Origin: Acidobacteriota bacterium
GTDB lineage: Bacteria; Acidobacteriota; Vicinamibacteria; Vicinamibacterales; UBA2999
Length of the DNA stretch: 64,000 nucleotides
Assembly (NCBI GenBank): GCA_027622905.1
Contig: JAQBVV010000001.1
Span: 2,111-66,110 of the forward strand
Reading direction: 5' to 3'
The first letter of the stretch is position 1. Every line of letters begins with the position of its first letter. Positions 4,998-48,664 of this stretch are shown here, in pieces. The position numbers and the translations under genes were made by a program. Under the pieces are notes generated by a model that saw only the letters and a program-made list of their open reading frames with translations, was not told where the DNA came from and ran no database searches.

Positions 4998-6332
4998 TCA
5001 GTGCGTCAGGTCGCTCGTGCTCGTTTCCCGCGTGGCCAACACGCCAGCCAGCGACAGCAGCGCCGCCGCGGTGAGGTAGTAGCCGACGTACTGCAGGCCG
5101 TACGTGTTGGCGAGCCACGTGGCGATGTACGGCGCGAGTGACGCGCCGAAGATGCCAGCCAGACTGAAGGCGAGCGAGCTGCCGGTGTATCGCGCGTTCG
5201 TGGGAAAGAGCTCCGACAGGATGGTCCCGAGCGGGCCGAAACTGAGCCCCATCAGGCCAAGTCCGATGCTGACTGTCAGGACCGCGCCCGTGCGGCCGGC
5301 GAGGAACAGTGGCCCCATCACGAGGCCGAAGAGCGCCATCGCTATCGACGATCCGATGAGCACCCGCCGCCGTCCCCCTTCCGCCAGGACCGCGGCGATC
5401 GGAATGGTTGCCGCGAGGCACACTACGCCGACCAGCTGGATCCGCAAGAACTCGTCGCGTGTGAACCCAAGTTCAGCCGTGCCCCACGCCAGCGTGAAGA
5501 CGGTCATCAGATAAAACGTCACGAATGTCGCGAGGGCGGTGACCGTGCCTGTGAGGAGCGCGCGCGGATGGTCGCGCAGCACGGCGAGCATCGGGACCCG
5601 CACGGGGACGCGGTCGCCGAGCGCGGCGGCGAACACCGGTGTTTCAGTCAGCGCCAGGCGCACGTAGAGGCCGATGATGACGAGGGCGGCACTCGCCACG
5701 AATGGTATCCGCCACCCGAACGCCAGGAATTGATCGTTGGTCAGGAAGTTCGAGAGCGCGAGGAATACGCCGGTCGAGATGAGGAACCCAAGTGGGGCGC
5801 CGAGCGGGGCGAACATGCCGTACCACGCGCGCTTGCCCGGCGGCGCGTTCTCGATGGCCAGCAGCACGGCGCCACCCCATTCGCCCCCGAGGCCGAGCCC
5901 CTGCCCGAAGCGGCAGATCGCCAGCAGGATGGGTGCGGCGAGACCGATGGAGGCATACGGCGGCAGGAGGCCGATCGCCACCGTGGAGCCGCCCATCGTC
6001 AGCAGCGCCGCCACCAGCGTCGTCTTGCGTCCCACGCGGTCCCCGAAGTGGCCGAAAAGGGCTGCGCCCACGGGTCGGGCGAGAAAGGCGATGCCGAAGG
6101 TGGCCAGCGACGCCAATGTGGCTGCAGCCGGGTCCGATGCAGGAAAAAAAAGCACCGGGAAGACTAGGACGGCCGCCGTACCGTAGATATAGAAGTCGAA
6201 GTACTCGATCGTCGTACCGACGAGGCTTGCGAACAACACGTGCCGCGCACTGTTGACCGGGGCGATGGTGCTCGAACTGGACATGGATGCTGTGGTTCCC
6301 GATGGCGGTTCGGTGCGCAGGCCCCCCGACAC
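4998..6332 (-). CDS. MFS transporter, metabolite:H+ symporter (MHS) type
   Basis: 444-aa ORF with about 12 TM segments and MHS-like motifs (GTTIEYFDFYIYGTAA, GHFGDRVGRKTTL). The start could be a downstream ATG. Confidence 0.85.
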   Translation of the reverse strand: MSGGLRTEPPSGTTASMSSSSTIAPVNSARHVLFASLVGTTIEYFDFYIYGTAAVLVFPVLFFPASDPAAATLASLATFGIAFLARPVGAALFGHFGDRVGRKTTLVAALLTMGGSTVAIGLLPPYASIGLAAPILLAICRFGQGLGLGGEWGGAVLLAIENAPPGKRAWYGMFAPLGAPLGFLISTGVFLALSNFLTNDQFLAFGWRIPFVASAALVIIGLYVRLALTETPVFAAALGDRVPVRVPMLAVLRDHPRALLTGTVTALATFVTFYLMTVFTLAWGTAELGFTRDEFLRIQLVGVVCLAATIPIAAVLAEGGRRRVLIGSSIAMALFGLVMGPLFLAGRTGAVLTVSIGLGLMGLSFGPLGTILSELFPTNARYTGSSLAFSLAGIFGASLAPYIATWLANTYGLQYVGYYLTAAALLSLAGVLATRETSTSDLTH

Positions 6333-6520
6333 GCAGCGTACGCCCGTCCCCTAGATGGCCCCCCGGGTTGCGAGCACCGCAGACTACAATGACGGGTGTT
6401 GAATGTCACTCTCACCCGGACACTTGGCCGACTCTCTCGCGTTGTGCGCATGCAGTTTCTTCTAAAAACACTCCTCGCGCTCGGCTTCGGCCTCGCCACG
6501 GCCGCCCTCCTGTGAAGCCA

Positions 6521-6620
6521 GAGCGCTTTTCGTTTCGGTCTAGGGCTTCTCGCAGGGGACAGGCCTTTTCGAAAAGCGCTTTCCCGCGTTTTTCGGTCTC
6601 CATCGAATCGAAGAACGCTC
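6521..6620 (+). repeat. Copy 1 of a ~100-nt dispersed palindromic (MITE/REP-like) element
   Basis: gagcgcttttcgtttcggtctagggcttctcgcaggggacaggccttttcgaaaagcgctttcccgcgtttttcggtctccatcgaatcgaagaacgctc. It aligns along its full length with the copies at 23641, 34011 (reverse) and 56598. Confidence 0.9.
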
Positions 6621-6700
6621 CAGGCGACAGGCGCTTTTTGTACTGGCGCGATCCGGTCTGTGTGACGGCGTGCGCCACGTACGTCGTGTATCACTGGCTG

Positions 6701-7126
6701 ATGCCAGCGGTGGGCGTTACACCGTTGTGGAACGGACACGTCACTGACGTCTTGCTGATTCCGGCGGGGCTTCCGTTCTGGCTGTGGCTGGAGCGCCGCC
6801 TGGGCTGGCGCGACGATGACGGCGTGCCCCGGTGGCGCGAGGTGGCGTTCGCGCTCGTGACCTGGACCGTCGCGGCCGAACTGATAGCCCCCAGGCTCTT
6901 CTCGCAGGCGACGGGCGATGTGTGGGACTCGGTAGCCTACGCCGGCGGAGCGGTGATTGCGGGTCTTCTGTGGCGTCCTCCGTGCCCAGAAGCGAAGGTG
7001 GCATCGGGTCGAAACAATTGCGTTGAGGTGACGGGGCCGGATAAGATTCTCTGTTGTCCCCGACGCGTGAGACTCGACATGGACCGCTGGCCACGGCCGA
7101 TCTCGGTGATCTCGGGAGCGAAATGA
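6701..7126 (+). CDS. Small integral membrane protein (resembles short proteins often auto-annotated as magnesium citrate secondary transporter)
   Basis: This is the in-frame ATG within ORF 6287..7126, chosen because the upstream part of that ORF overlaps the repeat and the MFS gene. The sequence TDVLLIPAGLPFWLWLERRLGW...VTWTVAAELIAPRLFSQATGDVWDSVAYAGGAVIAGLLW is hydrophobic and helical. Start (alternative GTG at 6662) and function are uncertain. Confidence 0.45.
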   Translation: MPAVGVTPLWNGHVTDVLLIPAGLPFWLWLERRLGWRDDDGVPRWREVAFALVTWTVAAELIAPRLFSQATGDVWDSVAYAGGAVIAGLLWRPPCPEAKVASGRNNCVEVTGPDKILCCPRRVRLDMDRWPRPISVISGAK

Positions 7127-21673: not shown

Positions 21674-23641
21674 GTGGCAGACAACAAGTTACCTTCAGCT
21701 GACGAAACGCCCGTCTACAACCCGCCGGCGGCGTTTTCCGCCAAGGCGCACATCAAGTCGCTCGACGAGTATCGCGCTCTGTACGACCGATCGGTGAGCG
21801 ACCCTGAAGGGTTCTGGGCCGAGCAGGCTGAGCAGCGCATCACCTGGATCGAGAAATGGCATACGGTTCGGCAGGTCGACTATCACAAGGCCGAGATCGC
21901 GTGGTACCTCGGTGGCAAGCTCAATGCCTGCTACAACTGCGTTGATCGCCATGTCGAAGCCGGTCGCGGGGGGAACACCGCGCTGATCTGGGAAGGCAAC
22001 AACCCGGCAGAGAGCAAGGTCTTCACCTACACGGAGCTTCAGGCGGAGGTGCAGAAAGCCGCCAATGCGCTCAAGAACCTTGGCATCGTCAAGGGCGATC
22101 GGGTGTGTATCTACATGCAGATGATTCCCGAGCTGGCCATTGCCATGCTGGCCTGTGCGCGGATCGGCGCGGTGCACTCGATCGTCTTCGGCGCGTTCAC
22201 GGCCGACAGCCTCGTCACCAGGATCAACGATTCGAAGTGCAAGGCGATCATCACGCAGGACACCGGTGTGCGTGGCGTCAAGCAGGACATCGCCATGAAG
22301 GCCAATGCCGACAGTGCGGTGAAGAGCACGCCGAGCATCGAGAAGATCCTCGTCGTGCGGCGCACCGGCGCGCCGGTCGACATGGCGCCCGGTCGCGACG
22401 TCTGGTGGCACGAAGCACTCGCCGCAGCGGACGCGACGTGCGCGCCAGAGGTGATGGACGCCGAGGATCCGCTGTTCATCCTGTACACCTCTGGATCGAC
22501 CGGCAAGCCCAAGGGCGTGCTGCATACCACCGGCGGGTACATGACCTACGTGGCGGCCACGTTCGAGTACGTCTTCGACTACCGCGCAGGCGATGTGTAC
22601 TGGTGCACCGCTGACATCGGCTGGGTGACGGGCCACAGCTACATCACCTACGGGCCGCTCGCCAACGGCGCCATCACGATGATGTATGAAGGCGTGCCGA
22701 ACTACCCCGATTGGGGTCGGTTCTGGGAGATCTGCCAGAAGCACAAGGTCAACATCTTCTACACCGCGCCGACGGCGCTGCGCGCGCTGATGAAGGAAGG
22801 CGACACGTGGCCGGCGAAATACGATCTCAGCAGCTTGCGATTGCTCGGCACGGTCGGCGAAACGATCAAGTCTCCGGAATGGACCTGGTACCACACGGTG
22901 ATCGGCAACGAGCGATGCCCGATCGTCGATACGTGGTGGCAGACCGAGACGGGCGGCATCCTGATGTCGCCGTTGCCCGGCGCAACGCCGACCAAGCCTG
23001 GTTCCGCGACGTTCCCGTTGTTTGGCATCACGCCCGCGCTGGTCGACGAGGAAGGCAACGTACTCGAGGGCAACAGCGTGCGGGGCAACCTCTGCATGTC
23101 GCAGTCGTGGCCCGGCCAGATGCGTGGTGTCTACGGCGATAAGCAACGCTTCTTCGACACCTACTTCGCGCGATTCCCAGGCAAGTACTTCACGGGTGAT
23201 GGTTGCCTGCGCGACAAGGACGGCTACTACTGGATCACGGGCCGCGTTGATGACGTGATCATCGTGTCCGGGCACAACCTGGGCTCGGCCGAGGTCGAGG
23301 GTGCGATCGGGAAACACCCGTCGGTCGCCGAGGCCGCGGTCGTCGGTTTCCCGCATGACATCAAGGGCAGCGCGATCTACGCCTTCGTCACGCTGAAGAC
23401 CGGCCAGACCCCGACCGATGCGATGAAGGCAGAGATCGTCAAGGCCGTGCGCGGCGAGATCGGTCCGCACGCCTCGCCGGACAAGATCCAGTTCACCGAG
23501 GGGTTGCCGAAGACTCGTTCGGGCAAGATCATGCGCCGCATTCTTCGCAAAATCGCAGAAGGCGACGTGCACGACCTTGGTGATATTACGACGCTCGCGG
23601 ACCCGGGCGTGGTGGAATCGCTGGTGACCGGGCGCGTCTAG
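21674..23641 (+). CDS. acs: Acetyl-CoA synthetase (AMP-forming)
   Basis: GTG at 21674 after a GGGAGAAG SD. Motifs are typical of Acs ([37 protein letters not shown]). Confidence 0.95.
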
Positions 23642-23741
23642 AGCGTTTTTCGTTATCGGTCTGGGGCTTCTCGCAAGGGCCAGGCTCGTTCGAAAAGCGC
23701 TTTCCCGCGTTTTTCGGTCTCCACCGAATCGAAAAACGCTC
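23641..23741 (+). repeat. Copy 2 of the ~100-nt dispersed palindromic element
   Basis: gagcgtttttcgttatcggtctggggcttctcgcaagggccaggctcgttcgaaaagcgctttcccgcgtttttcggtctccaccgaatcgaaaaacgctc. Its first base is the G of the acs stop codon TAG. Confidence 0.9.
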
Positions 23742-23815
23742 CAACGTCGCGGGTTCGCGGCATCGACGCGTGTCCCCGCGTGTGGAGCCGGGCCGTCGAG
23801 GATAGAGGACGACAG

Positions 23816-24601
23816 ATGCGATCGTGGATCGGCCTCTCGGTGATGGCAGTCTGGGTGGGGTCGTCGGTCGCGTGTGCGCCGCCGGCACCTCCCGTGGCGC
23901 AGGACACGCGGCCCAGCGGCCCCGTCCAGTGGGGCTACGGTCGGGAGGACGGTCCGGCCGTGTGGGGCGATCTCTCTGTCGACTACGACCTGTGCGCAAC
24001 CGGCACTCGGCAGTCACCGGTCGATCTCCGCTCCGTCTCCGCAGCGGAGCCGGAGGCGTTCACATTCGATTACAAAGATTCAGCGATCGAGCTCGTCAAC
24101 GACGGGCGCACCGTTCGGGCGACCTACGATCCCGGTAGCGAGGTCGACATTGGCGGACAGCGCTTCGGGCTTCGAGAATTGCATTTTCATGCGCCGAGCG
24201 AGCATACCGTCGGGGGCCGGTCGTTCCCTGCAGAAGTCCACTTCGGTCACCAGTCGTCTGCGGGCGATCTGGCAGTGATCGCCGCATTCCTTGACGTCGG
24301 CCGCCACAGCGATGCGCTCGCACCGGTGCTCGACCGTCTGCCGACCACGATCGACCTGCCCCGCGCGGTGCTCGACAACCGATTGTCCGCCGCGGCGATC
24401 CTCGGTTCGGTGGGTGAGGTCATGCGCTACGACGGGTCCTTGACGAAGCCGCCGTGTACAGAGGGCGTTCGCTGGTTCGTGCTGGCCGATGCGATCGCGG
24501 TGGATGACGCCCAGATCGAGCAGCTCCGCGCAGTCGTGTACGACAACAGTCGACCGGTGCAGCCGAGGAACAACAGGACGATTGTCAGCGCCAGACGATG
24601 A
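23816..24601 (+). CDS. Alpha-class carbonic anhydrase, secreted
   Basis: The ATG at 23816 starts a signal peptide. Motifs: WGY...GPAVWG, QSPVDL, LHFHAPSEH, YDGSLTKPPCTEGVRWFVL. Confidence 0.9.
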   Translation: MRSWIGLSVMAVWVGSSVACAPPAPPVAQDTRPSGPVQWGYGREDGPAVWGDLSVDYDLCATGTRQSPVDLRSVSAAEPEAFTFDYKDSAIELVNDGRTVRATYDPGSEVDIGGQRFGLRELHFHAPSEHTVGGRSFPAEVHFGHQSSAGDLAVIAAFLDVGRHSDALAPVLDRLPTTIDLPRAVLDNRLSAAAILGSVGEVMRYDGSLTKPPCTEGVRWFVLADAIAVDDAQIEQLRAVVYDNSRPVQPRNNRTIVSARR

Positions 24602-24741
24602 TCCTCCTGTTGCGGACGATCGCGTTGAGGTCCGGAATGATGCCCGGGCCTTCGATGGCTGACGGCAGCAGGCTTTGCCTGCCAACCTTCTGAGTTCCTT
24701 GTCGCATTCTCGGTGGGTGTGAACCACTGGACGGTGCTACC

Positions 24742-25914
24742 GTGGCCGCCATGACAACGCTGCCCACCAAGCAGGAGATGCGCCGCGCATTCCTGAGTGG
24801 CGATGCGACCTACGACGGCGTGTTTTTCACGGGCGTGAAGACGACAGGCATCTTCTGCCGGCCGTCGTGCACGGCGCGCAAGCCGCGGCCCGAAAACGTG
24901 GAGTTCTTCGCCACGCCCCGCGAGGCCGCCTTTTCCGGCTATCGACCCTGCAAGCGGTGTCGCCCGCTGGACACCGACGGCCGTCCGCCTGCGTGGGTGG
25001 GCAGGCTGCTGGCGCGGGTCGACGCCGATCCTGCATCGCGCATCCGGGCGGCTGAGCTCCGCGCCGAGGGCATCGACCCCGCGCGGGCACGGCGGTATTT
25101 CCTGAAGCACTTTGGCATGACATTCCAGGCCTATGGCCGTGCCAAGCGCCTGGCAGACGCTTTTCACCAGATCAAGGGGGGCGCAACCGTGAGCGACGCG
25201 GCCAGCGACGGGGGATTCGAGTCTGAAAGCGGCTTTCGGTCTGCTTTTGCCAGGGCCTTCGGAACCTCGCCTGGAGAAGCCCACGACGGCGACACCGTTT
25301 CGCTCGACTGGATCGCGTCGCCGGTGGGGCCGCTCATCGCCGGTGCGACGACGGCAGGCGTGTGCCTGCTCGAGTTCACTGACCGTCGCATGCTGGAGGC
25401 CCAGCTGTCGACACTCGGGCGCCGGCTCGGCATGCCACTCATCCCCGGTCGGAACCGCTGGCTCGAGAGGCTACGTGTGCAGCTCGGCGAATATTTTGAC
25501 GGCGCGCGTGAGGCTTTCGACCTGCCGCTGGTCATCCGGGGGACCGTCTTCCAGGAGCGGGTCTGGAACGCGCTGCTCACCATTCCCTATGGTGAAACCT
25601 GGTCGTATCGCGACCTCGCCCGATGCATCGGGAACCCGGCCGCGACGCGCGCCGTGGGAACGGCCAACGGCATGAACCGCATCGCCATCGTGATCCCCTG
25701 TCACCGCGTCGTGAACGCCGACGGGCGCCTGGGTGGGTATGGTGGCGGCGTCTGGCGCAAGCGGAGTCTGCTCGACCTTGAGCGTGGGCAGGACTCGATC
25801 ACCACATCCGTCGCCTCCGGGTACCGTGGAGACCTGGCGGAGTCGCAGCGTGGGCCTTCGACTCAGAGCCAGCCGAAGTCCACGCGCACGGCGCCGCCGA
25901 TTGCCGAACCATGA
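24742..25914 (+). CDS. ada: Ada-type bifunctional regulator / methylated-DNA-protein-cysteine methyltransferase
   Basis: The N-terminal zinc domain (TTGIFCRPSCTARKP...YRPCKRCRP) closely parallels E. coli Ada. An AraC-type HTH region follows, then a C-terminal MGMT active site (IPCHRVV). Confidence 0.85.
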   Translation: MAAMTTLPTKQEMRRAFLSGDATYDGVFFTGVKTTGIFCRPSCTARKPRPENVEFFATPREAAFSGYRPCKRCRPLDTDGRPPAWVGRLLARVDADPASRIRAAELRAEGIDPARARRYFLKHFGMTFQAYGRAKRLADAFHQIKGGATVSDAASDGGFESESGFRSAFARAFGTSPGEAHDGDTVSLDWIASPVGPLIAGATTAGVCLLEFTDRRMLEAQLSTLGRRLGMPLIPGRNRWLERLRVQLGEYFDGAREAFDLPLVIRGTVFQERVWNALLTIPYGETWSYRDLARCIGNPAATRAVGTANGMNRIAIVIPCHRVVNADGRLGGYGGGVWRKRSLLDLERGQDSITTSVASGYRGDLAESQRGPSTQSQPKSTRTAPPIAEP

Positions 25915-25954
25915 CGCCGTCCTGTGCGCGATACACTTCCACGCCCACGGACTG

Positions 25955-34010: not shown

Positions 34011-34116
34011 CTAAAGCGTTTTTCGATTTGGTGTAGACCGAAAAACGCGGGAACGCGCTTTTCGAAAAGGCCTGGCCCCTGCGAGAAGCCCCAGACCGAA
34101 ACGAAAAGCGCTCTAG
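34011..34116 (-). repeat. Copy 3 (reverse orientation) of the ~100-nt dispersed palindromic element
   Basis: The reverse complement reads ctagagcgcttttcgtttcggtctggggcttctcgcaggggccaggccttttcgaaaagcgcgttcccgcgtttttcggtctacaccaaatcgaaaaacgctttag. It lies between convergent genes. Confidence 0.9.
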
Positions 34117-42820: not shown

Positions 42821-44155
42821 ATGAACGCACTGCAGGGTGAGGCGCTGGGGAGCTATCAACGCAGTCGCGAGCGATCGCGGGAGCTGTTCGATCTGTTGAC
42901 CGACGAGGCCTACTACCACCAGCCGATCGCGCTGCGCCACCCGATCGTGTTCTACGAGGGACACCTGCCCGGGTTCAGCTTCAACGCCTTGATGAAGAAG
43001 GCGCTGGGCCGCCCGAGCATCGACGCGAGGCTCGAGGATCTGTTTGCCCGGGGCATCGACCCGCATGAATCAGCTGCGGCGGGCAGGGCGCAGGTGAGCG
43101 CAGAATCGCAGTGGCCCTCCCGAGAGACGGTCCGGGCGTTTGCGGCCGATGCCGACCGACAGATCGAAGACGTGCTGGCCACCGGGGATCTCGATCGCCC
43201 CGGGCATCCGCTACTGGACCGGGCCGAGGCGGCCTTTTGCATCATCGAGCACGAGGCGCTGCACCACGAAACACTCCTCTACATGTGGCATCGGCTGCCG
43301 TTCGCGTTCAAGCAGCGCCCATCCGGTTACCATCCGCAGACCGATGGCATCGCGCCGCCGGCTGAATGGATCACCGTGCCGGCGGGTCGCGCCACACTGG
43401 GTGTCGATAGAGACGCCGTGCGCTTTGGATGGGACAACGAGTTTCCGGCACGCGCGGAAGACGTCGCGACATTCACTCTCGAGCGCCACGATGTGACCAA
43501 CGCGCGGTTCCTCGAGTTCGTGGAAGCGGGCGGGTATAGAGACCCGCGCTGGTGGGCGCCCGAGGATTGGCAATGGGTACAGCGGGAGCGCATGGCTCAT
43601 CCCCTCTTCTGGGAGCGCGAGGGAGACGCGTGGCGCTGGCGCTGCATGTTCGAGCTGGTGCCGTTGCCGCTGTCGTGGCCCGTCTACGTGAGCCACGCGG
43701 AGGCGTCGGCGTTTGCCCGCTGGCGCGGCGCGCGGCTGCCCACGGAGGCCGAGTTTCAGCGCGCCGCCTACGGTTCGCCGGAAGGGGATCGCCAGTATCC
43801 TTGGGGGGGCGACGAGCCGTCAGATGAACGCGGCGTGTTCGACTTCTCGAGCTGGGATCCGCACCCCGCCGGCAGCCACCCGGCGGGCGCCAGTGCCTGG
43901 GGCATCGAGGATCTCGTGGGCAACGGGTGGGGATGGACGAGCACGCCCTTCGGTCCCTTTCCGGGGTTTCAGGCGATGGCGTCGTACCCGGAATACTCCG
44001 CGGATTTCTTCGACAACCAGCACATGGTGATGAAGGGCGCGTCTCCGGCGACAGCTCGCGAGCTGTTGCGGCCGTCGTTTCGCAACTGGTTTCGGACGCG
44101 CTATCCGTACGTCTACGCGACATTTCGCTGTGCCAAAGACCACGACCGCGCGTAG
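42821..44155 (+). CDS. egtB: Ergothioneine biosynthesis sulfoxide synthase EgtB (DinB_2 + FGE-sulfatase domains)
   Basis: 444-aa ORF with an N-terminal DinB-like region (PIVFYEGHLPGF...EHEALHHETL) and a C-terminal FGE/SUMF1-like domain (GNGWGWTSTPF...). It is adjacent to egtD. Confidence 0.85.
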   Translation: MNALQGEALGSYQRSRERSRELFDLLTDEAYYHQPIALRHPIVFYEGHLPGFSFNALMKKALGRPSIDARLEDLFARGIDPHESAAAGRAQVSAESQWPSRETVRAFAADADRQIEDVLATGDLDRPGHPLLDRAEAAFCIIEHEALHHETLLYMWHRLPFAFKQRPSGYHPQTDGIAPPAEWITVPAGRATLGVDRDAVRFGWDNEFPARAEDVATFTLERHDVTNARFLEFVEAGGYRDPRWWAPEDWQWVQRERMAHPLFWEREGDAWRWRCMFELVPLPLSWPVYVSHAEASAFARWRGARLPTEAEFQRAAYGSPEGDRQYPWGGDEPSDERGVFDFSSWDPHPAGSHPAGASAWGIEDLVGNGWGWTSTPFGPFPGFQAMASYPEYSADFFDNQHMVMKGASPATARELLRPSFRNWFRTRYPYVYATFRCAKDHDRA

Positions 44156-45077
44156 CCGGTTCGCCGAAGACGTTGCGTACTACCTGTCGCAGACGCCGCG
44201 GCAGTTGCCGTCCGAACACCTGTACGACGAGCTGGGTTCCGAGCTCTTCGAGGCGATCTGTCGCCTGCCGTGGTACGGCATCACCAGAGCCGAGCAGCGG
44301 TTGCTCGAACGGCGTGCGGGCGACATCGTGTCGCGCGTCGCTCCGCTGGCGACCATCGTCGAGCTGGGGCCCGGTAGCGGCCTGAAGCTCGCGACGCTGC
44401 TGGCGGCTCGGCCGGCCGGTCCGGTGACCGTGCATCTGGTGGACGTGTCCGCGGCGGCCCTCGACGCTGCCGGCCGCGCCCTGGCCAGCGATCCGGATCT
44501 GGCGATCGTCCCGCACGAAGCGACCTACGAGGCCGGGTTGGCGGAGGTCGCCGCCGGGAGACGGTCGAGCGGAAAGACGCTGACGCTCTTTCTCGGCTCG
44601 AACATAGGCAACTTCGACCCGCCTGGCGCGGCAGCCTTTCTGCGTAACCTCCGAACCGCGATCTCGGAGGGCGATTCACTGCTGCTCGGGGCGGATCTCG
44701 TGAAGCCGGAGTCCGAGTTGCTGCTCGCGTATAACGATCCGCTCGGCGTGACAGCGGCCTTCAACAAGAACCTGCTCGTGCGTGCCAACACCGAACTCGA
44801 TGCTGATTTCGATCTGGCGGGGTTCAGCCATCGCGCGATCTGGAACGACGAGGCTTCGCGCATCGAGATGCACCTGGTCAGTACACGGAGGCAGCGCGTG
44901 CGGGTACCGGCCGTTGATCTCAATGTCACGTTCGAGGACGGCGACACGATCTGGACCGAGAGTTCCTACAAGTACCGCACCGACCAGATTGTGACCATGC
45001 TGTCGCAGGCAGGGTTTTCTTCCACCAGCCAGTGGTCGGACGATGGCTTCGCGCTGACCCTGGCGGCGGCGCGCTGA
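44130..45077 (+). CDS. egtD: L-histidine N-alpha-methyltransferase EgtD
   Basis: 315-aa ORF. LYDELGSELFEAICRLPWYGITRAEQRLL..., ELGPGSG and FLGSNIGNF are typical of EgtD. It overlaps the egtB 3' end by 26 nt. Confidence 0.85.
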   Translation: MPKTTTARSRFAEDVAYYLSQTPRQLPSEHLYDELGSELFEAICRLPWYGITRAEQRLLERRAGDIVSRVAPLATIVELGPGSGLKLATLLAARPAGPVTVHLVDVSAAALDAAGRALASDPDLAIVPHEATYEAGLAEVAAGRRSSGKTLTLFLGSNIGNFDPPGAAAFLRNLRTAISEGDSLLLGADLVKPESELLLAYNDPLGVTAAFNKNLLVRANTELDADFDLAGFSHRAIWNDEASRIEMHLVSTRRQRVRVPAVDLNVTFEDGDTIWTESSYKYRTDQIVTMLSQAGFSSTSQWSDDGFALTLAAAR

Positions 45078-45133
45078 ACTGGACTAGACAGCCGACGAGA
45101 CGTTTGCCGAGAAGTTACCAAGAGGACCCCACC

Positions 45134-45793
45134 ATGCCTGACCAGCCGAAGCCGACACCCGAGATTGCGCTCATGCCGAATGGCCCGTATCGGGTCTCCA
45201 ACCTCGCGAGGCTTGAAGGTCTGTATGGCGCGCCGGCCCACGACACGACGGAGGTGACCAAGCTCTGCCGGTGCGGCGGCTCGAAGAACAAGCCCTTCTG
45301 CGACGGCAGTCATCGGACCAACGGCTTCAGCGATGCGAAGGCCGCTGATCGCGTCCCCGACGCGCGCGAGGACTACGTCGCCGAGGCGATCACCATCCAC
45401 GACAACCGCGGCATCTGCGCGCATGCCGGGCGATGTACCGACGGTCTCGAGGAGGTGTTCCGGTTGAGGCAGGAGCCGTTCATCCTGGCGACCGCCGCGT
45501 CGGCTGAGCAGATCGCGGCCGTCATCGACACCTGTCCCTCAGGCGCACTCAGCTACTCGATCGACGGCGTCGAACACCGCGACGGCGGCGGGGAGCCGGT
45601 GGTCGGTTACGTTCCCAACGGCCCGTACGTCGTCCGTGGTGGCGCCGCCGCGCTCAAGAACGTGCCGCAGGGCGAGGGCGCATCGACGAAACGCTTCGCG
45701 CTGTGCCGTTGCGGCCACAGCACCAACAAGCCGTTCTGCAGCGGCGCGCACTGGAACCACCAGTTCGACGAGCACGCCAAGAAGCCCGAGTAA
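45134..45793 (+). CDS. CDGSH iron-sulfur domain protein (CDGSH / central Cys-rich module / CDGSH)
   Basis: Internal ATG at 45134. It has two CDGSH-type motifs (CRCGGSKNKPFCDGSH, CRCGHSTNKPFCSGAH) flanking a Cys-containing module (GICAHAGRCTD...CPSGAL). Confidence 0.8.
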   Translation: MPDQPKPTPEIALMPNGPYRVSNLARLEGLYGAPAHDTTEVTKLCRCGGSKNKPFCDGSHRTNGFSDAKAADRVPDAREDYVAEAITIHDNRGICAHAGRCTDGLEEVFRLRQEPFILATAASAEQIAAVIDTCPSGALSYSIDGVEHRDGGGEPVVGYVPNGPYVVRGGAAALKNVPQGEGASTKRFALCRCGHSTNKPFCSGAHWNHQFDEHAKKPE

Positions 45794-46018
45794 CTCCCCC
45801 CGGTTCGGTTCGCGCCGATCCCGACTGTAGCGCCGGTGGCTCTCCGACTCCGCGCCGAAAAGAAGCGGCTGGTCGGTGCATGTTCGATGTGGCGTGAATA
45901 CACGAGCAACGCCGGGCAATTCCAGCGGCCTGCCCCGCGTAGCCCCCAGGCCGGTGTTCCGGACCAACGGATCTGCCGATACTAGGGTGCACGCGCCCGG
46001 CAAGGAGCGTCGGGACAC

Positions 46019-46567
46019 GTGGGGGGCCATCGAATGACGACGGAGGGCGCTGGTGCCACTAGCGGATTCACGCTCGTCGAGCTGCTGATCGTCGTGATGC
46101 TCATCGGCATCATCTCGGCTGTCGCGATTCCGGGGCTGCTGCGTGCGCGTCAGTCGGGCAACGAAGCCTCGGCGGTCGGTTCGCTGCGCGTCATCAGCAG
46201 CGCGGAGGCCGCCTACGCCTCCACGTGCGGCGGTGGTTACGCACCCTCGCTGGAGGACCTTGCCTTGGCCCCAGTGGATGGCGGACCGGCGTTCATCACC
46301 TCGGACCTGTCCACGACCGGTGTGGCCAAGAGCGGCTACGTCATGGCGGTGGCCGCGGGTACCAACACGGCCGTCATGACCTCCAGCGCAGAGACGTGTA
46401 ACGGCGGAGCTGAAACCGTCGCGAGCTTCCATGCGCACACCGAGCCGTCCTCGGTCGGTAGCACGGGGCAGCGGTCGTTCGCGACCAACGAGAGCGGGAC
46501 GATCTACCAGCTCGTGACTGGCGGCGCTATTCCCAATTCCATGGCCGGCGCTACGACGTATCGCTAA
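46019..46567 (+). CDS. Prepilin-type N-terminal cleavage/methylation domain protein (pilin/pseudopilin-like)
   Basis: GTG at 46019 lies 11 nt after an AAGGAG SD. The leader is followed by G|FTLVELLIVVMLIGIISAVAIPGL, the class III signal. Confidence 0.8.
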   Translation: MGGHRMTTEGAGATSGFTLVELLIVVMLIGIISAVAIPGLLRARQSGNEASAVGSLRVISSAEAAYASTCGGGYAPSLEDLALAPVDGGPAFITSDLSTTGVAKSGYVMAVAAGTNTAVMTSSAETCNGGAETVASFHAHTEPSSVGSTGQRSFATNESGTIYQLVTGGAIPNSMAGATTYR

Positions 46568-46634
46568 TTCACGGTGGTCGGTCCCCGACGGTGGCCGGAG
46601 ACCGGCGCCCCACGGGCTGCTAGACTGCGCGTCG

Positions 46635-47765
46635 ATGAACTCCGTCCACGAGCGAACACGCGCCATCCGAGAGGCGGCGACCCAACTAGGGTTCGATCAC
46701 TGCGCGGCCGCGCCCGTAGCGGCGTTGGACGCGGCCCCGCGTCTGCGCGAGTGGCTCGCGCTCGGGATGCACGGGAGCATGCAGTGGATGGAGCGCAGCG
46801 CCGACCGGCGCGCCCATCCTGGGCTCGTGGTGCCGGAGGCGCGGTCGGTTCTGATCGTGACGCGAAGTTACTGGACGGGAGAGGACGCCACCACCGACCC
46901 GTCCCGCGGCAGGATCTCCCGCTACGCGTGGGGGGGCGAATACCACGACGTGCTCGGCGCGGCGCTCGGCGACCTGTATCAGCGCACACAGGAGATCGCA
47001 CCGGGTGTCGTGGGGCGTTTTTACATCGACACCGGCCCCGTGCTCGAGAAGGCCTGGGCGGAACTCGCCGGCCTGGGCTGGATCGGCAAGCACTCGAATC
47101 TCATCACCGCCGGAGTCGGCTCGTGGTTCTTTCTCGGCGCCATCGTGCTCGATTGCGAGCTTGCGTACGGAGACCCCGTTGCCGACCAGTGCGGAAGCTG
47201 CACGGCGTGCATCGACGTGTGCCCGACAGAAGCGATCGTCGCGCCCTACGTCGTGGACGCGAGGCTCTGCATCTCCTATCTGACGATCGAGAACCGTGGC
47301 CCGATCCCGCGCGAATTACGGGCGGGCGTCGGCAACCGCATCTTTGGCTGTGACGAATGCCAGGACGTCTGTCCGTGGAACCGGTTCGCCCAGGTCGGGG
47401 CCGCCGCGTCGGCCTTCTCGGCTCGCAAGGGGCTCCGGGCGCCGGATCTGGTGGACCTGCTTTCGCTGGACGAAGATGGCTTCAGTACGCTGTTCCGCGG
47501 GAGCCCCGTGAAGCGCGCCCGGTATCAGGGCTTTCTGCGCAACGTCGCCGTCGCGCTGGGCAATAGCGATCACCCGCGTGCGGTGGCGGCGCTGACATCG
47601 AGACTGCAGCACGAATCCGCCCTGGTGCGTGGCCACTGCGCGTGGGCGCTGGGACGTTTCGACGACGCCGATGCGCGCGCCGCACTCAGCGATCGGTTGC
47701 CGTGCGAGTCCGATGCCTGGGTTCGCGAAGAGATCGAGGCTGCGCTGGCGCCCGCACTCCGCTAA
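46635..47765 (+). CDS. queG: tRNA epoxyqueuosine(34) reductase
   Basis: 376-aa ORF with 4Fe-4S motifs (CGSCTACIDVCPTEAI, CDECQDVCPWN), CISYLTIE and a C-terminal HEAT-like region. Confidence 0.9.
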   Translation: MNSVHERTRAIREAATQLGFDHCAAAPVAALDAAPRLREWLALGMHGSMQWMERSADRRAHPGLVVPEARSVLIVTRSYWTGEDATTDPSRGRISRYAWGGEYHDVLGAALGDLYQRTQEIAPGVVGRFYIDTGPVLEKAWAELAGLGWIGKHSNLITAGVGSWFFLGAIVLDCELAYGDPVADQCGSCTACIDVCPTEAIVAPYVVDARLCISYLTIENRGPIPRELRAGVGNRIFGCDECQDVCPWNRFAQVGAAASAFSARKGLRAPDLVDLLSLDEDGFSTLFRGSPVKRARYQGFLRNVAVALGNSDHPRAVAALTSRLQHESALVRGHCAWALGRFDDADARAALSDRLPCESDAWVREEIEAALAPALR

Positions 47766-48101: not shown

Positions 48102-48329
48102 ATGCCGAGTAAGAATCGACGTCAGAGGAAATCGTCGTCACAAGACTCGATGACGCGGTCATCGTCGGGCGCCTCCGCGCTCCGGGCGTTGAAGCTCGAC
48201 GCCTGTGAGCGAGGCCTGCTCAATGACGTCGAACGGGGCGAGTGGACGGCAGTCGGGCAGCTCGCCGCTGCCCGAGTTCGATACGCTGGCATCGCGAAGG
48301 CGACTCTACGCCGCCCTCGAAAAGCGTAG
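48102..48329 (+). pseudogene. Truncated CopG/RHH-type antitoxin-like fragment (N-terminal half only)
   Basis: ...CERGLLNDVERGEWTAVGQLAAARVRYAGIAKATLRRPRK resembles the N-terminal part of COG5304-type antitoxins (xxFERGEWxSV...). The ribbon-helix-helix half and a partner toxin are missing. Confidence 0.35.
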
Positions 48330-48388
48330 CTGCGCATTCTCTCGCAAGGCTCGCCGATCCGCAGGGTGCCGGCGTACAATTGGACATC

Positions 48389-48664
48389 ATGCGGGTCACC
48401 ATTCAGTTGCCAGACGACATATCCGCCGCCCTCGAGGGGCAGTGGGACGACGTGCCCCGCCGTTCACTCGAGGCCATCGCGGTTGAGGGCTACCGCACCG
48501 GCGCACTGACGGAGTCTCAGGTTCGGAAGTTGCTGGGACTCGACACGCGCTTCCAGGTACATGTGCTGCTCAAGGAGCACCGCGTGCCGCTGCATTACAC
48601 GAGCGCAGACATCGAGGACGACATCCGCGCACAACGTGAGCTCGGCATCCTGCCCGGCCAATGA
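48389..48664 (+). CDS. UPF0175-family antitoxin
   Basis: ATG at 48389. MRVTIQLPDDISAALE...SLEAIAVEGYRTGALTESQVRKLLGLDTRFQVHVLLKEHRVPLHYTSADIEDDI fits the UPF0175 pattern. It overlaps the downstream toxin gene by 4 nt. Confidence 0.8.
   Translation: MRVTIQLPDDISAALEGQWDDVPRRSLEAIAVEGYRTGALTESQVRKLLGLDTRFQVHVLLKEHRVPLHYTSADIEDDIRAQRELGILPGQ

What the first reader, a model, noticed from the sequence alone, without database searches (positions are those of the whole stretch)
23639..23741. Dispersed ~100-nt palindromic element (MITE/REP-like), four copies in 64 kb
The copies are at 6521-6620 (+), 23641-23741 (+), 34011-34116 (-) and 56598-56699 (+). They align end to end with only scattered substitutions. 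The consensus is GAGCGCTTTTCGTTTCGGTCTGGGGCTTCTCGCAGGGGCCAGGCCTTTTCGAAAAGCGCTTTCCCGCGTTTTTCGGTCTCCACCGAATCGAAAAACGCTC.

The element is built from four copies of an 11-12-nt module (GAGCGYTTTTCG) in alternating orientation. It can therefore fold as two adjacent hairpins (module 1 with 2, module 3 with 4). Alternatively its termini can pair as 12-bp terminal inverted repeats. All copies are intergenic and have no coding capacity of their own.

I do not recognise this element as a named family. It could be a non-autonomous transposon, a REP-like RNA stability or terminator element, or an array of binding sites for a protein that recognises TTTTCG half-sites.
Basis: seen in the sequence. Interest (0 to 1): 0.65.

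Follow-up and report, generated by a model that had tools for sequence, protein, structure and literature searches.

The report
Small non-autonomous transposon targeting CTAG sites
The four ~100-base repeats are copies of a miniature transposon (MITE) in an uncultured marine Acidobacteria genome that inserts at the rare sequence CTAG, often a gene's stop codon; it is an ordinary kind of selfish DNA, though this family has not been described.

Summary
The window holds four copies, 90-94% identical to one another.

It is a miniature inverted-repeat transposable element (MITE). The evidence:
- It has ~22-bp terminal inverted repeats.
- It is flanked by a duplicated TA inside CTAG.
- Eight further copies lie at unrelated sites in other metagenome contigs.
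- Orthologous sites in close relatives are empty.
- Assemblies break at copies.
- One copy sits in frame inside a TrpH/PHP phosphoesterase gene, where seven orthologues lack exactly 34 residues. An insertion therefore adds 102 bp.

CTAG occurs 18 times in the window against 207 expected, and many of those sites are TAG stop codons. This explains why copies sit on or next to stop codons. The stop codon is regenerated after insertion.

No Rfam family, plasmid, phage or viral contig matches. There is no covariation, no canonical terminator and no transposase in the sequence held.

The mobilising enzyme was not found. TA-in-CTAG targeting is the IS630 pattern, but an IS5/IS427-type parent is not excluded.

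Verdict: a new member of a known kind, of modest interest.

The parts
6518..6623 (+). MITE copy 1 (106 bp). It is flanked by CCAG at both ends, in the intergenic region between an MFS transporter gene (-) and a small ORF followed by the H+-pyrophosphatase gene (+).
   Evidence: The same non-consensus tetranucleotide CCAG at both ends argues that these bases come from a duplicated target. Flanking genes.
23638..23744 (+). MITE copy 2, the focal copy (107 bp, one extra A). Its left CTAG contains the TAG stop codon (23639-23641) of acetyl-CoA synthetase. Its right flank has decayed to CCAA. It lies 71 nt upstream of the called carbonic anhydrase gene (23816).
   Evidence: Five relatives with an orthologous acs 3' end carry NTAG and no element.
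23639..23660 (+). Left terminal inverted repeat of copy 2, including the TA of the duplicated target (TAGAGCGTTTTTCGTTATCGGT).
   Evidence: arm 23641-23652 pairs perfectly with 23730-23741.
23722..23743 (-). Right terminal inverted repeat of copy 2. Read on the - strand it is TGGAGCGTTTTTCGATTCGGT.
23691..23716 (.). Internal palindrome of copy 2 (modules 2 and 3: CGAAAAGCGC / GCGTTTTTCG, 6-nt loop). These modules repeat the core of the terminal repeat.
   Evidence: (pair I4).
34011..34116 (-). MITE copy 3 (106 bp). Its left CTAG contains the TAG stop codon (34113-34115, - strand) of an M20-family peptidase gene. It lies between that gene and the convergent Kelch-repeat gene, upstream of a separate downstream hairpin.
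   Evidence: Empty sites in relatives L013, L016 and L017, the last two with both flanking genes orthologous. A second sample's scaffold ends inside this copy.
56595..56699 (+). MITE copy 4 (105 bp, one base deleted). It begins 5 nt after the TAG stop codon (56587-56589) of the type III glutamine synthetase gene. Its flanks are CTCG and CTAG.

Best explanation
The element is a miniature inverted-repeat transposable element (MITE). It is a 100-bp non-coding DNA transposon with ~22-bp imperfect terminal inverted repeats (TAGAGCGYTTTTCGWTTCGGT, counting the flanking TA).

**Mobilisation (inferred).** It is moved in trans by a DDE-type transposase encoded elsewhere in the genome.

**Integration.** It inserts at the TA of the palindromic target CTAG and duplicates the TA, so each insertion adds 102 bp, which is 34 codons.

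**Consequences of the end sequence (from the sequence).**
- The element starts with G and ends with C, so CTAG is rebuilt on both sides.
- An insertion into a C-TAG stop codon leaves the stop codon intact.
- An insertion into a CTA-G reading frame leaves the frame intact.

**Why it sits at stop codons.** CTAG is about eleven-fold depleted in this genome, and a large share of the remaining sites are TAG stop codons. This gives the element its apparent association with gene 3' ends.

**Hairpins (inferred).** The strong hairpins follow from the inverted repeats plus two internal copies of the repeat core. There is no evidence that they are selected as RNA structures.

**Age (inferred).** The copies are about 5% diverged on average and are absent from relatives, which points to a recent expansion in a narrow lineage of marine Acidobacteria.

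**Parent family (inferred from the target preference alone).** The most likely parent is an IS630/Tc1-mariner-type insertion sequence. An IS5-family (IS427/IS5-group) parent would fit almost as well.
For: **Shown here**
1. *Dispersal.* There are 12 distinct sites with unrelated flanks: 4 in the window, 7 in JGI metagenome contigs and 1 on another scaffold from a second sample of the same assembly project. About 7 further sites are seen only as element-derived peptide inside predicted proteins.
2. *Terminal repeats.* Both ends match a 21-mer at <=4 mismatches, and in the held element-bearing contigs that 21-mer occurs only at copy ends.
3. *Flanks.* Similarity ends exactly at CTAG...CTAG. Copy 1 has CCAG at both ends, and L011 has ATAG on the left and CTAG on the right.
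4. *Empty sites.*
   - The M20 peptidase stop region in L013 reads AAACTAGcgag with a single CTAG.
   - In L016 and L017 both flanking genes are orthologous, and the intergenic space is 43 nt against 154 nt in the window.
   - The acs stop region carries no element in 5 relatives.
   - The TrpH/PHP protein P0124 carries exactly 34 extra residues between AHPGK and LGLSG. All 7 orthologues lack them, and Leu (CTA) is present on both sides.
5. *Target scarcity.* CTAG occurs 18 times in the window against 207 expected. Of the 14 unoccupied sites, 5 are stop codons.
6. *Behaviour as a repeat in assemblies.* Contigs L005, L007 and L009 and scaffold_2615 end in or within 18 nt of a copy.
7. *Lineage restriction.* There is no copy in about 130 kb of non-redundant sequence from syntenic relatives. 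Only 9 protein clusters out of 5.8 billion contain element peptide.
8. *A related element elsewhere.* A different 226-bp element with related terminal repeats and CTAG flanks occurs in a soil Acidobacteriota MAG.

**From the literature**
- IS630 transposes preferentially to the TA in 5'-CTAG-3' (Tenzen & Ohtsubo 1991, as cited in PMC2170065).
- IS630-family elements duplicate TA (PMC2170065).
- The 107-bp RUP and 107/155-bp Correia elements are TA-flanked bacterial MITEs (PMC2229807).
Against: - No transposase with matching ends was found. None is present in the ~74 kb of the scaffold examined or in any held locus, so mobilisation in trans is inferred.
- A 2-bp (TA) duplication cannot be told from a 4-bp (CTAG) duplication by sequence when the target is CTAG. 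The variant sites favour TA only weakly, needing 4 against 6 post-insertion mutations by my count.
- At gene 3' ends, 7 of 8 copies have the same end facing the upstream gene. A palindromic target alone does not predict this, and it could point to selection at the RNA level (two-sided p about 0.07).
- The metagenome copies were found with an exact central 29-mer, so their central conservation is an effect of how they were found, and diverged copies were missed.
Confidence: 0.84

Rival explanations
1. It is a selected cis-acting RNA element, such as a 3'-UTR stabiliser, processing site or weak terminator. Its copies are kept downstream of genes because the transcribed hairpins protect or end the mRNA. 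Mobility is only how it got there.
For: - The element's own strand folds very stably, at -43 to -51 kcal/mol with z from -3.5 to -5.1. In three of the four copies it folds better than the opposite strand.
- At gene 3' ends, 7 of 8 copies are co-oriented with the upstream gene.
- The central palindrome CGAAAAGCGC-N6-GCGTTTTTCG resembles a weak bidirectional terminator, with an A-tract, a stem and a T-tract (from the sequence).
Against: - None of 38 predicted pairs shows a compensatory change, and substitutions break pairs as often as they keep them.
- No canonical terminator lies inside the focal copy.
- At copy 3 a separate hairpin lies downstream of the element, and the relative L013 has its own hairpin with no element.
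- Copies also lie in divergent promoter regions (copy 1, L011), 5' of genes (P0123, P0126) and inside a coding sequence (L026).
- Close relatives do without the element at the same genes.
- No Rfam family matches.
Confidence: 0.1
2. It is a REP/REPIN-type or IS200/IS605-derived palindromic element. It would be moved as single-stranded DNA by a Y1 (RAYT or TnpA) transposase that recognises the hairpins.
For: - The element has two adjacent imperfect hairpins and is about 100 nt long.
- It is mostly extragenic.
- A conserved tetranucleotide sits next to the palindrome, which recalls the GTAG head of REPs (the family features are from my own knowledge).
Against: - The termini are true inverted repeats of about 22 bp.
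- A target sequence is duplicated, which Y1 transposition does not do.
- The two hairpins are not inverted copies of each other (63 nt against 40 nt).
- Both orientations occur on what looks like one replichore.
- No Y1_Tnp gene appears in the gene tables of the held loci.
Confidence: 0.04
3. It is an array of operator sites for a host DNA-binding protein that recognises GCGYTTTTCG half-sites, spread to form a regulon.
For: - Each copy holds four alternating copies of the 12-nt module.
- Some copies lie upstream of genes (copy 1, L011, P0123, P0126).
Against: - The whole 106 bp is conserved as a unit, including the non-module spacer, and its boundaries are sharp.
- Most copies are 3' of genes or on stop codons.
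- Flanking genes share no functional theme: acs, an M20 peptidase, glutamine synthetase III, an FHA-domain protein and other peptidases.
- Modules occur nowhere outside full copies.
Confidence: 0.02

Closest known systems
RUP (repeat unit of pneumococcus), the IS630-Spn1-derived MITE of Streptococcus pneumoniae
   Same: - Nearly the same size: 107 bp against 106 bp.
- Terminal inverted repeats.
- Insertion at TA with TA at both termini.
- Non-coding, mostly intergenic, with high copy-to-copy similarity suggesting recent spread (PMC2229807).
   Different: - There is no sequence similarity, and the host phylum is different.
- The ends of RUP match a known IS630-family element, whereas no parent was found here.
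[quoted passage not shown] This element has two fully open frames and a length increment divisible by three.
- This element shows a strict CTAG context.
IS630 (Shigella sonnei) and the IS630/Tc1-mariner superfamily
   Same: - Preferential insertion at the TA within 5'-CTAG-3', with TA duplication (Tenzen & Ohtsubo 1991, cited in PMC2170065).
- Terminal inverted repeats bound by the transposase.
   Different: - This element encodes no transposase.
- No IS630-type gene was found in the sequence held.
- Similarity of its ends to any IS630-family member could not be tested because ISfinder was not available.
Correia elements / NEMIS of Neisseria
   Same: - TA-flanked MITEs of ~107-155 bp with ~24-26-bp terminal repeats.
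- Long stem-loops in transcripts.
- Frequent position close to genes.
- The short form has open frames and is found fused to ORFs (PMC2229807).
   Different: - Correia elements carry functional promoters, an IHF site and RNase III processing sites, none of which is shown here.
- There is no sequence similarity.
- The CTAG specificity is not shared.
Rickettsia palindromic elements (RPE)
   Same: Palindromic repeats of ~100-150 bp that can sit in frame inside protein-coding genes and add a peptide segment (PMC2229807). Here one copy adds 34 residues to a TrpH/PHP phosphoesterase.
   Different: - Only one in-frame case was seen here, and most copies are extragenic.
- RPE target duplication is uncertain.
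- The lineage and the sequence are unrelated.
IS5-family elements of the IS5 and IS427 groups
   Same: - 2-4-bp duplications at YTAR/TA-type targets.
- Ends beginning GA/GG (my own recollection of ISfinder summaries, not checked here). The element proper begins with GAG.
   Different: No IS5-type transposase with matching ends was found, and the CCAG/CCAG site of copy 1 does not fit YTAR.
REP / REPIN elements with RAYT transposases
   Same: Short, extragenic, hairpin-forming repeats, often between convergent genes.
   Different: REPs lack long terminal inverted repeats and target duplications. Both are present here.

Membership tests
MITE (non-autonomous class II element) | Short (<~300 bp) and without a transposase gene | tested here: met
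   The unit is 106 bp including flanks. Its open frames encode only 34-35 residues with no family match, and the translated peptide finds only 9 incidental ORFs in the protein database.
MITE (non-autonomous class II element) | Terminal inverted repeats | tested here: met
   The two ends are ~22 nt long and differ at 2 positions in the consensus. A 12-nt perfect pair is present in the focal copy.
MITE (non-autonomous class II element) | Target-site duplication shown by comparing filled and empty sites | tested here: met
   - Relatives have a single CTAG or TAG at the M20 and acs stop codons.
- P0124 has a 34-residue insertion with Leu (CTA) on both sides, against 7 orthologues without it.
- Copy 1 has CCAG at both ends.
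MITE (non-autonomous class II element) | Multiple dispersed copies at unrelated loci | tested here: met
   12 sites are seen at DNA level and about 7 more at protein level.
MITE (non-autonomous class II element) | A cognate autonomous element with matching ends, able to mobilise it | not testable with these tools
   None was found in the sequence held. Scans of the genome and metagenome collections were capped, and the full genome was not available.
IS630/Tc1-mariner-derived MITE | TA dinucleotide target, duplicated on insertion | tested here: inconclusive
   TA is present at both ends in most copies, and the 102-bp increment fits 100 + 2. A 4-bp CTAG duplication (98 + 4) gives the same sequence. 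The variant sites L011 (ATAG/CTAG) and copy 2 favour TA slightly.
IS630/Tc1-mariner-derived MITE | Ends similar to those of an IS630-family insertion sequence | not testable with these tools
   There was no ISfinder access and no IS630-type gene in the held loci.
REP/REPIN (RAYT-mobilised) | No target duplication, and an associated RAYT gene flanked by REPs | tested here: not met
   A target duplication is present. No Y1 transposase appears in the gene tables of the held loci, although the whole genome was not searched.
Rfam-described structured RNA | Match to a curated covariance model at gathering score | tested here: not met
   The only hits in the window are two tRNAs. The best sub-threshold hit on the element is mir-3718 at 14.7 bits against a gathering score of 78, with E = 2.3.
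Intrinsic terminator | GC-rich stem followed by a U-tract | tested here: not met
   The scan finds no such site inside the focal copy. Its one hit spans the junction between the gene end and the element and is within the number expected by chance.

The most novel reading that the evidence does not exclude
The most novel reading still open is that the element is adapted to be harmless in gene-dense DNA and is partly domesticated.

- It targets CTAG, which in this genome largely means TAG stop codons.
- It rebuilds the stop codon.
- It adds exactly 34 codons, with open frames in both orientations.
- It ends up preferentially in one orientation in 3' UTRs, where its hairpins would act on mRNA stability or termination.

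On this reading the family would be a 'stop-codon-seeking' MITE that supplies ready-made 3'-UTR structures and occasional protein inserts.
Probability: 0.12. Interest if true: 0.5.

Novelty: new member of a known kind. Interest (0 to 1): 0.27.

Why it matters
- **Annotation.** Gene callers already produce false or extended ORFs across copies, for example the 279-residue 'gene' over copy 1 and the N-terminal extensions in P0123 and P0126. Short-read assemblies of this lineage break at copies.
- **Target choice and genome composition.** The family is a clean natural example of how a target preference (CTAG) combined with strong avoidance of that tetranucleotide steers a transposon onto stop codons without harming genes.
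- **Lineage marker.** The copies are lineage-specific and can help tell closely related marine Acidobacteria populations apart.
- **Limits.** It does not open a new mechanism.

Tried and rejected
**Searches that found nothing useful**
- Rfam at gathering thresholds on the whole window, and at E<=10 on the focal copy, gave nothing relevant.
- An exact central 29-mer found 0 hits in 185,579 species-representative genomes. A terminal-repeat 21-mer found one hit, which was a different 226-bp element.
- Viral contigs, plasmids and phages gave no match.
- Full-text search for the module sequence returned only two unrelated papers with chance primer matches.

**Analyses that gave no support**
- RNAalifold on 10 copies found no covariation because the copies are too similar. 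I did not build a covariance model for that reason.
- nhmmer and fuzzy searches of all held loci found no diverged copies, solo ends or full-length parents.
- Pfam on the unannotated part of the window (44-50 kb) and on an IS1-like ORF in relative L012 found no transposase linked to the element.

**Look-ups that failed**
- Two contig look-ups failed because the exact protein was not on record.

**Ideas considered and dropped**
- The element as a fusion of two shorter units joined at a decayed CTAG. The junction (TTCC against CTAG) does not support it, and no solo units exist in the sequence held.
- The stop-codon association as evidence of function. It is explained by the distribution of CTAG.
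Full report
**1. The observation**

They are 90-94% identical to one another, and similarity stops abruptly at both ends.

The 12-nt module GAGCGYTTTTCG occurs 11 times at <=1 mismatch, all inside the four copies. Shuffled sequence gives 0.65 on average and at most 3.

When eight further copies from other contigs are added, the unit is 106 bp:

CTAGAGCGCTTTTCGTTTCGGTCTAGGGCTTCTCGCAGGGGCCAGGCCTTTTCGAAAAGCGCTTTCCCGCGTTTTTCGGTCTCCACCGAATCGAAAAACGCTCTAG

The window copies are:
- 6518-6623 (+)
- 23638-23744 (+)
- 34011-34116 (-)
- 56595-56699 (+)

**2. Source and distribution**

The window is part of an 83-kb scaffold from an ENA metagenome assembly (MEHR18-1). A second sample gave a near-identical scaffold. 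NCBI labels the window's acetyl-CoA synthetase as coming from a 'MAG: Acidobacteria bacterium'. G+C is about 65%.

| Search | Result |
|---|---|
| Central 29-mer, 185,579 species-representative genomes | 0 hits |
| Central 29-mer, JGI metagenome contigs | 9 contigs |
| Central 29-mer and terminal-repeat pattern, viral contigs | 0 hits |
| Consensus, plasmids and phages | 0 hits |

The 9 JGI contigs represent 7 new sites. Their flanks are unrelated to the window and to each other.

I also translated the element in its open frames and searched 5.8 billion protein clusters with the result. Only 9 clusters contain it. One of these led to a twelfth DNA-level site, on another scaffold from the second sample of the same project (L026).

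About 130 kb of non-redundant sequence from syntenic relatives holds no copy. These relatives have Acs proteins 90-95% identical to the window's, and their acs 3' ends are 85-89% identical at DNA level. nhmmer and fuzzy matching find no diverged copy or solo end in anything held.

The family is therefore real and multi-copy, but confined to a narrow lineage.

Several short-read contigs end in or within 18 nt of a copy: L005, L007, L009 and scaffold_2615 at copy 3. Repeats typically cause such breaks.

**3. Anatomy**

The two ends are inverted repeats of about 22 nt:
- left end: TAGAGCGCTTTTCGTTTCGGT
- right end, read on the other strand: TAGAGCGTTTTTCGATTCGGT

Among the element-bearing contigs held, this 21-mer occurs only at copy ends.

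Modules 2 and 3 repeat the core of the terminal repeat internally and form a 10-bp palindrome with a 6-nt loop. This is why the element can fold in two ways: as two adjacent hairpins, or as one long stem closed by the termini. Both folds appear among the minimum-energy structures. Folding is much stronger than for shuffled sequence.

**4. Evidence for transposition**

*(a) Flanks.* Nine of ten complete left ends and seven of eleven right ends read CTAG. The exceptions are informative:
- Copy 1 has CCAG on both sides. Two parallel mutations would be needed if these bases belonged to the element, so duplication of the target is the simpler reading.
- L011 has ATAG on the left and CTAG on the right, so only the TA is shared.

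*(b) Empty sites at the M20 peptidase gene (copy 3).*
- Relative L013 reads ...GGCGGAAACTAGcgagcg..., with a single CTAG followed at once by its own hairpin.
- The window reads ...GGCGGGAAACTAG[element]TTAGtggcg....
- In L016 and L017 both flanking genes (Kelch and M20) are orthologous. Their intergenic space is 43 nt, against 154 nt in the window.

*(c) Empty sites at acs (copy 2).* Five relatives end the gene with GTN TAG and carry no element. Only the window has GTC TAG, which makes a CTAG.

*(d) An in-frame copy in a gene.* In L026 a copy lies inside a TrpH/PHP phosphoesterase gene.
- The DNA reads GGA AAG CTA GAG CGC ... GCT CTA GGG CTG.
- All seven orthologues aligned lack exactly the 34 residues between AHPGK and LGLSG.
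- An insertion therefore adds 102 bp. This equals a 100-bp element plus a 2-bp duplication, or 98 bp plus 4 bp.

**5. Why the copies sit at stop codons**

CTAG occurs 18 times in the 64-kb window against 207 expected from base composition. GATC and TCGA occur more than 550 times each. There are 950 TA dinucleotides.

Four of the 18 CTAGs belong to the copies. Of the other 14:
- 5 are TAG stop codons preceded by C
- 3 are inside genes
- 1 is intergenic
- 5 form a cluster that I did not resolve

An element that needs CTAG will therefore land on stop codons often. The stop codon lies within the flanking CTAG at copy 2, copy 3, L010 and L009. It lies 5-9 nt upstream at copy 4 and L006.

Because the element starts with G, TA|G becomes TA-G(AGCG...), so the stop codon survives. 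This follows directly from the sequence.

**6. Tests of an RNA or regulatory role**

- *Known families.* No Rfam family matches.
- *Covariation.* RNAalifold on 10 copies finds 38 pairs with no compensatory change and a covariation term of -0.01 kcal/mol. Single substitutions break pairs about as often as they keep them. The copies are too alike for this to be a strong negative.
- *Terminator.* No canonical terminator lies inside the focal copy.
- *Position.* At copy 3 a separate hairpin lies downstream of the element. Other copies sit in very different places: between divergent genes (copy 1, L011), upstream of genes (P0123, P0126), inside a gene (L026), and read through at the end of a NUDIX gene in reverse orientation (P0128).
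- *Orientation.* This is the one observation not explained by transposition alone. At gene 3' ends, 7 of 8 copies have the left end facing the upstream gene, giving a two-sided binomial p of about 0.07. I treat this as a lead and not as a finding.

**7. Which transposase**

None was found. The gene tables and Pfam scans of the scaffold and the held loci contain no transposase associated with the element.

The literature held here gives three relevant points:
- IS630 transposes preferentially to the TA in 5'-CTAG-3' (title of Tenzen & Ohtsubo 1991 in the reference list of PMC2170065).
- IS630-family elements duplicate TA (PMC2170065).
- The 107-bp RUP element is thought to be an IS630-Spn1 derivative (PMC2229807).

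From my own recollection, some IS5-family groups also make 2-4-bp duplications at YTAR/TA targets and have ends beginning GA/GAG. I therefore put an IS630-type parent first, at roughly 55-60% given that it is a MITE. An IS5/IS427-type parent comes second.

A soil Acidobacteriota MAG carries a different 226-bp element with closely related terminal repeats and CTAG flanks (L015 6319-6545). This suggests a family of autonomous elements with these ends in the phylum.

**8. Verdict**

It is a previously undescribed MITE family of an uncultured marine Acidobacteria lineage, with a TA-in-CTAG target.

Three features are neat:
- The stop codon is preserved after insertion.
- Each insertion adds exactly 34 codons.
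- Two reading frames are open throughout.

All three have precedents in RUP, Correia elements and RPE. It is a new member of a known kind, and its interest is modest.

Noticed in passing
L026 10490-10595 (ENA scaffold_8429, second sample of the MEHR18-1 project): A copy of the element is inserted in frame in a TrpH/PHP phosphoesterase gene. It adds 34 residues (ERFSFRSSASRRAQAFSKSAFPRFSVSTESKNAL) between AHPGK and LGLSG, which all seven aligned orthologues lack. Whether the protein still works is unknown.
   Followed up: yes
window, whole; cluster at 45084-46686: CTAG is about eleven-fold under-represented (18 against 207 expected). Five of the 18 lie within 1.6 kb, around a CDGSH/4Fe-4S gene, a prepilin-type N-methylation-motif ORF and the start of queG. 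The cluster is unexplained.
   Followed up: partly
L015 6319-6545 (CAVSND010000016.1, soil Acidobacteriota MAG MFD03975.bin.1.62): A different 226-bp element has terminal repeats closely related to those of the window element (CTAGAGCGCTTTTCGTTTCGGTGTGGCG... and ...CGCGACACCGAACAGAAAACTGCGCTAG) and CTAG at both ends. It was the only hit to the terminal repeat among 185,579 species-representative genomes.
   Followed up: partly
window 23745-25954: A carbonic anhydrase gene and an Ada/MGMT-type regulator gene lie between acs and the convergent second acs-like gene, directly downstream of copy 2. In five relatives the two acs genes are adjacent (about 90-150 nt apart), so this ~2.2-kb block is lineage-specific and begins at the MITE.
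   Followed up: partly
window 6287-7126 (+): The public gene call over copy 1 (279 residues, no Pfam match) runs through the element and is probably an artefact. A 21-codon hydrophobic ORF (MQFLLKTLLALGFGLATAALL) ends 2 nt before the element's CCAG flank, and a short membrane-like ORF follows it at about 6690-7000.
   Followed up: no
window 42821-45077: A DinB_2/FGE-sulfatase (EgtB-like) gene is followed by a histidine-specific methyltransferase (Methyltransf_33, EgtD-like) gene. This looks like an ergothioneine biosynthesis pair.
   Followed up: no
window 48242-49143: An adjacent UPF0175 and DUF3368 gene pair looks like a small toxin-antitoxin-type module.
   Followed up: no
L023 15112-16376 versus L024 15112-16260 (about 1 kb beyond the window's 3' end): The two samples' scaffolds diverge after the ThiS-like gene. 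One continues with a BNR/sortilin-type gene. The other has a 55-residue ORF and a gap before a TetR/RND efflux operon. This is either strain variation or an assembly join. No MITE copy lies at the breakpoint.
   Followed up: no
P0128, P0123, P0126 (protein level only): Predicted proteins carry element-derived peptide. A NUDIX hydrolase has a reverse-oriented copy read through at its C-terminus. An MGMT-domain protein and a CPBP (Rce1-like) protease have N-terminal extensions that are probably miscalled starts.
   Followed up: partly
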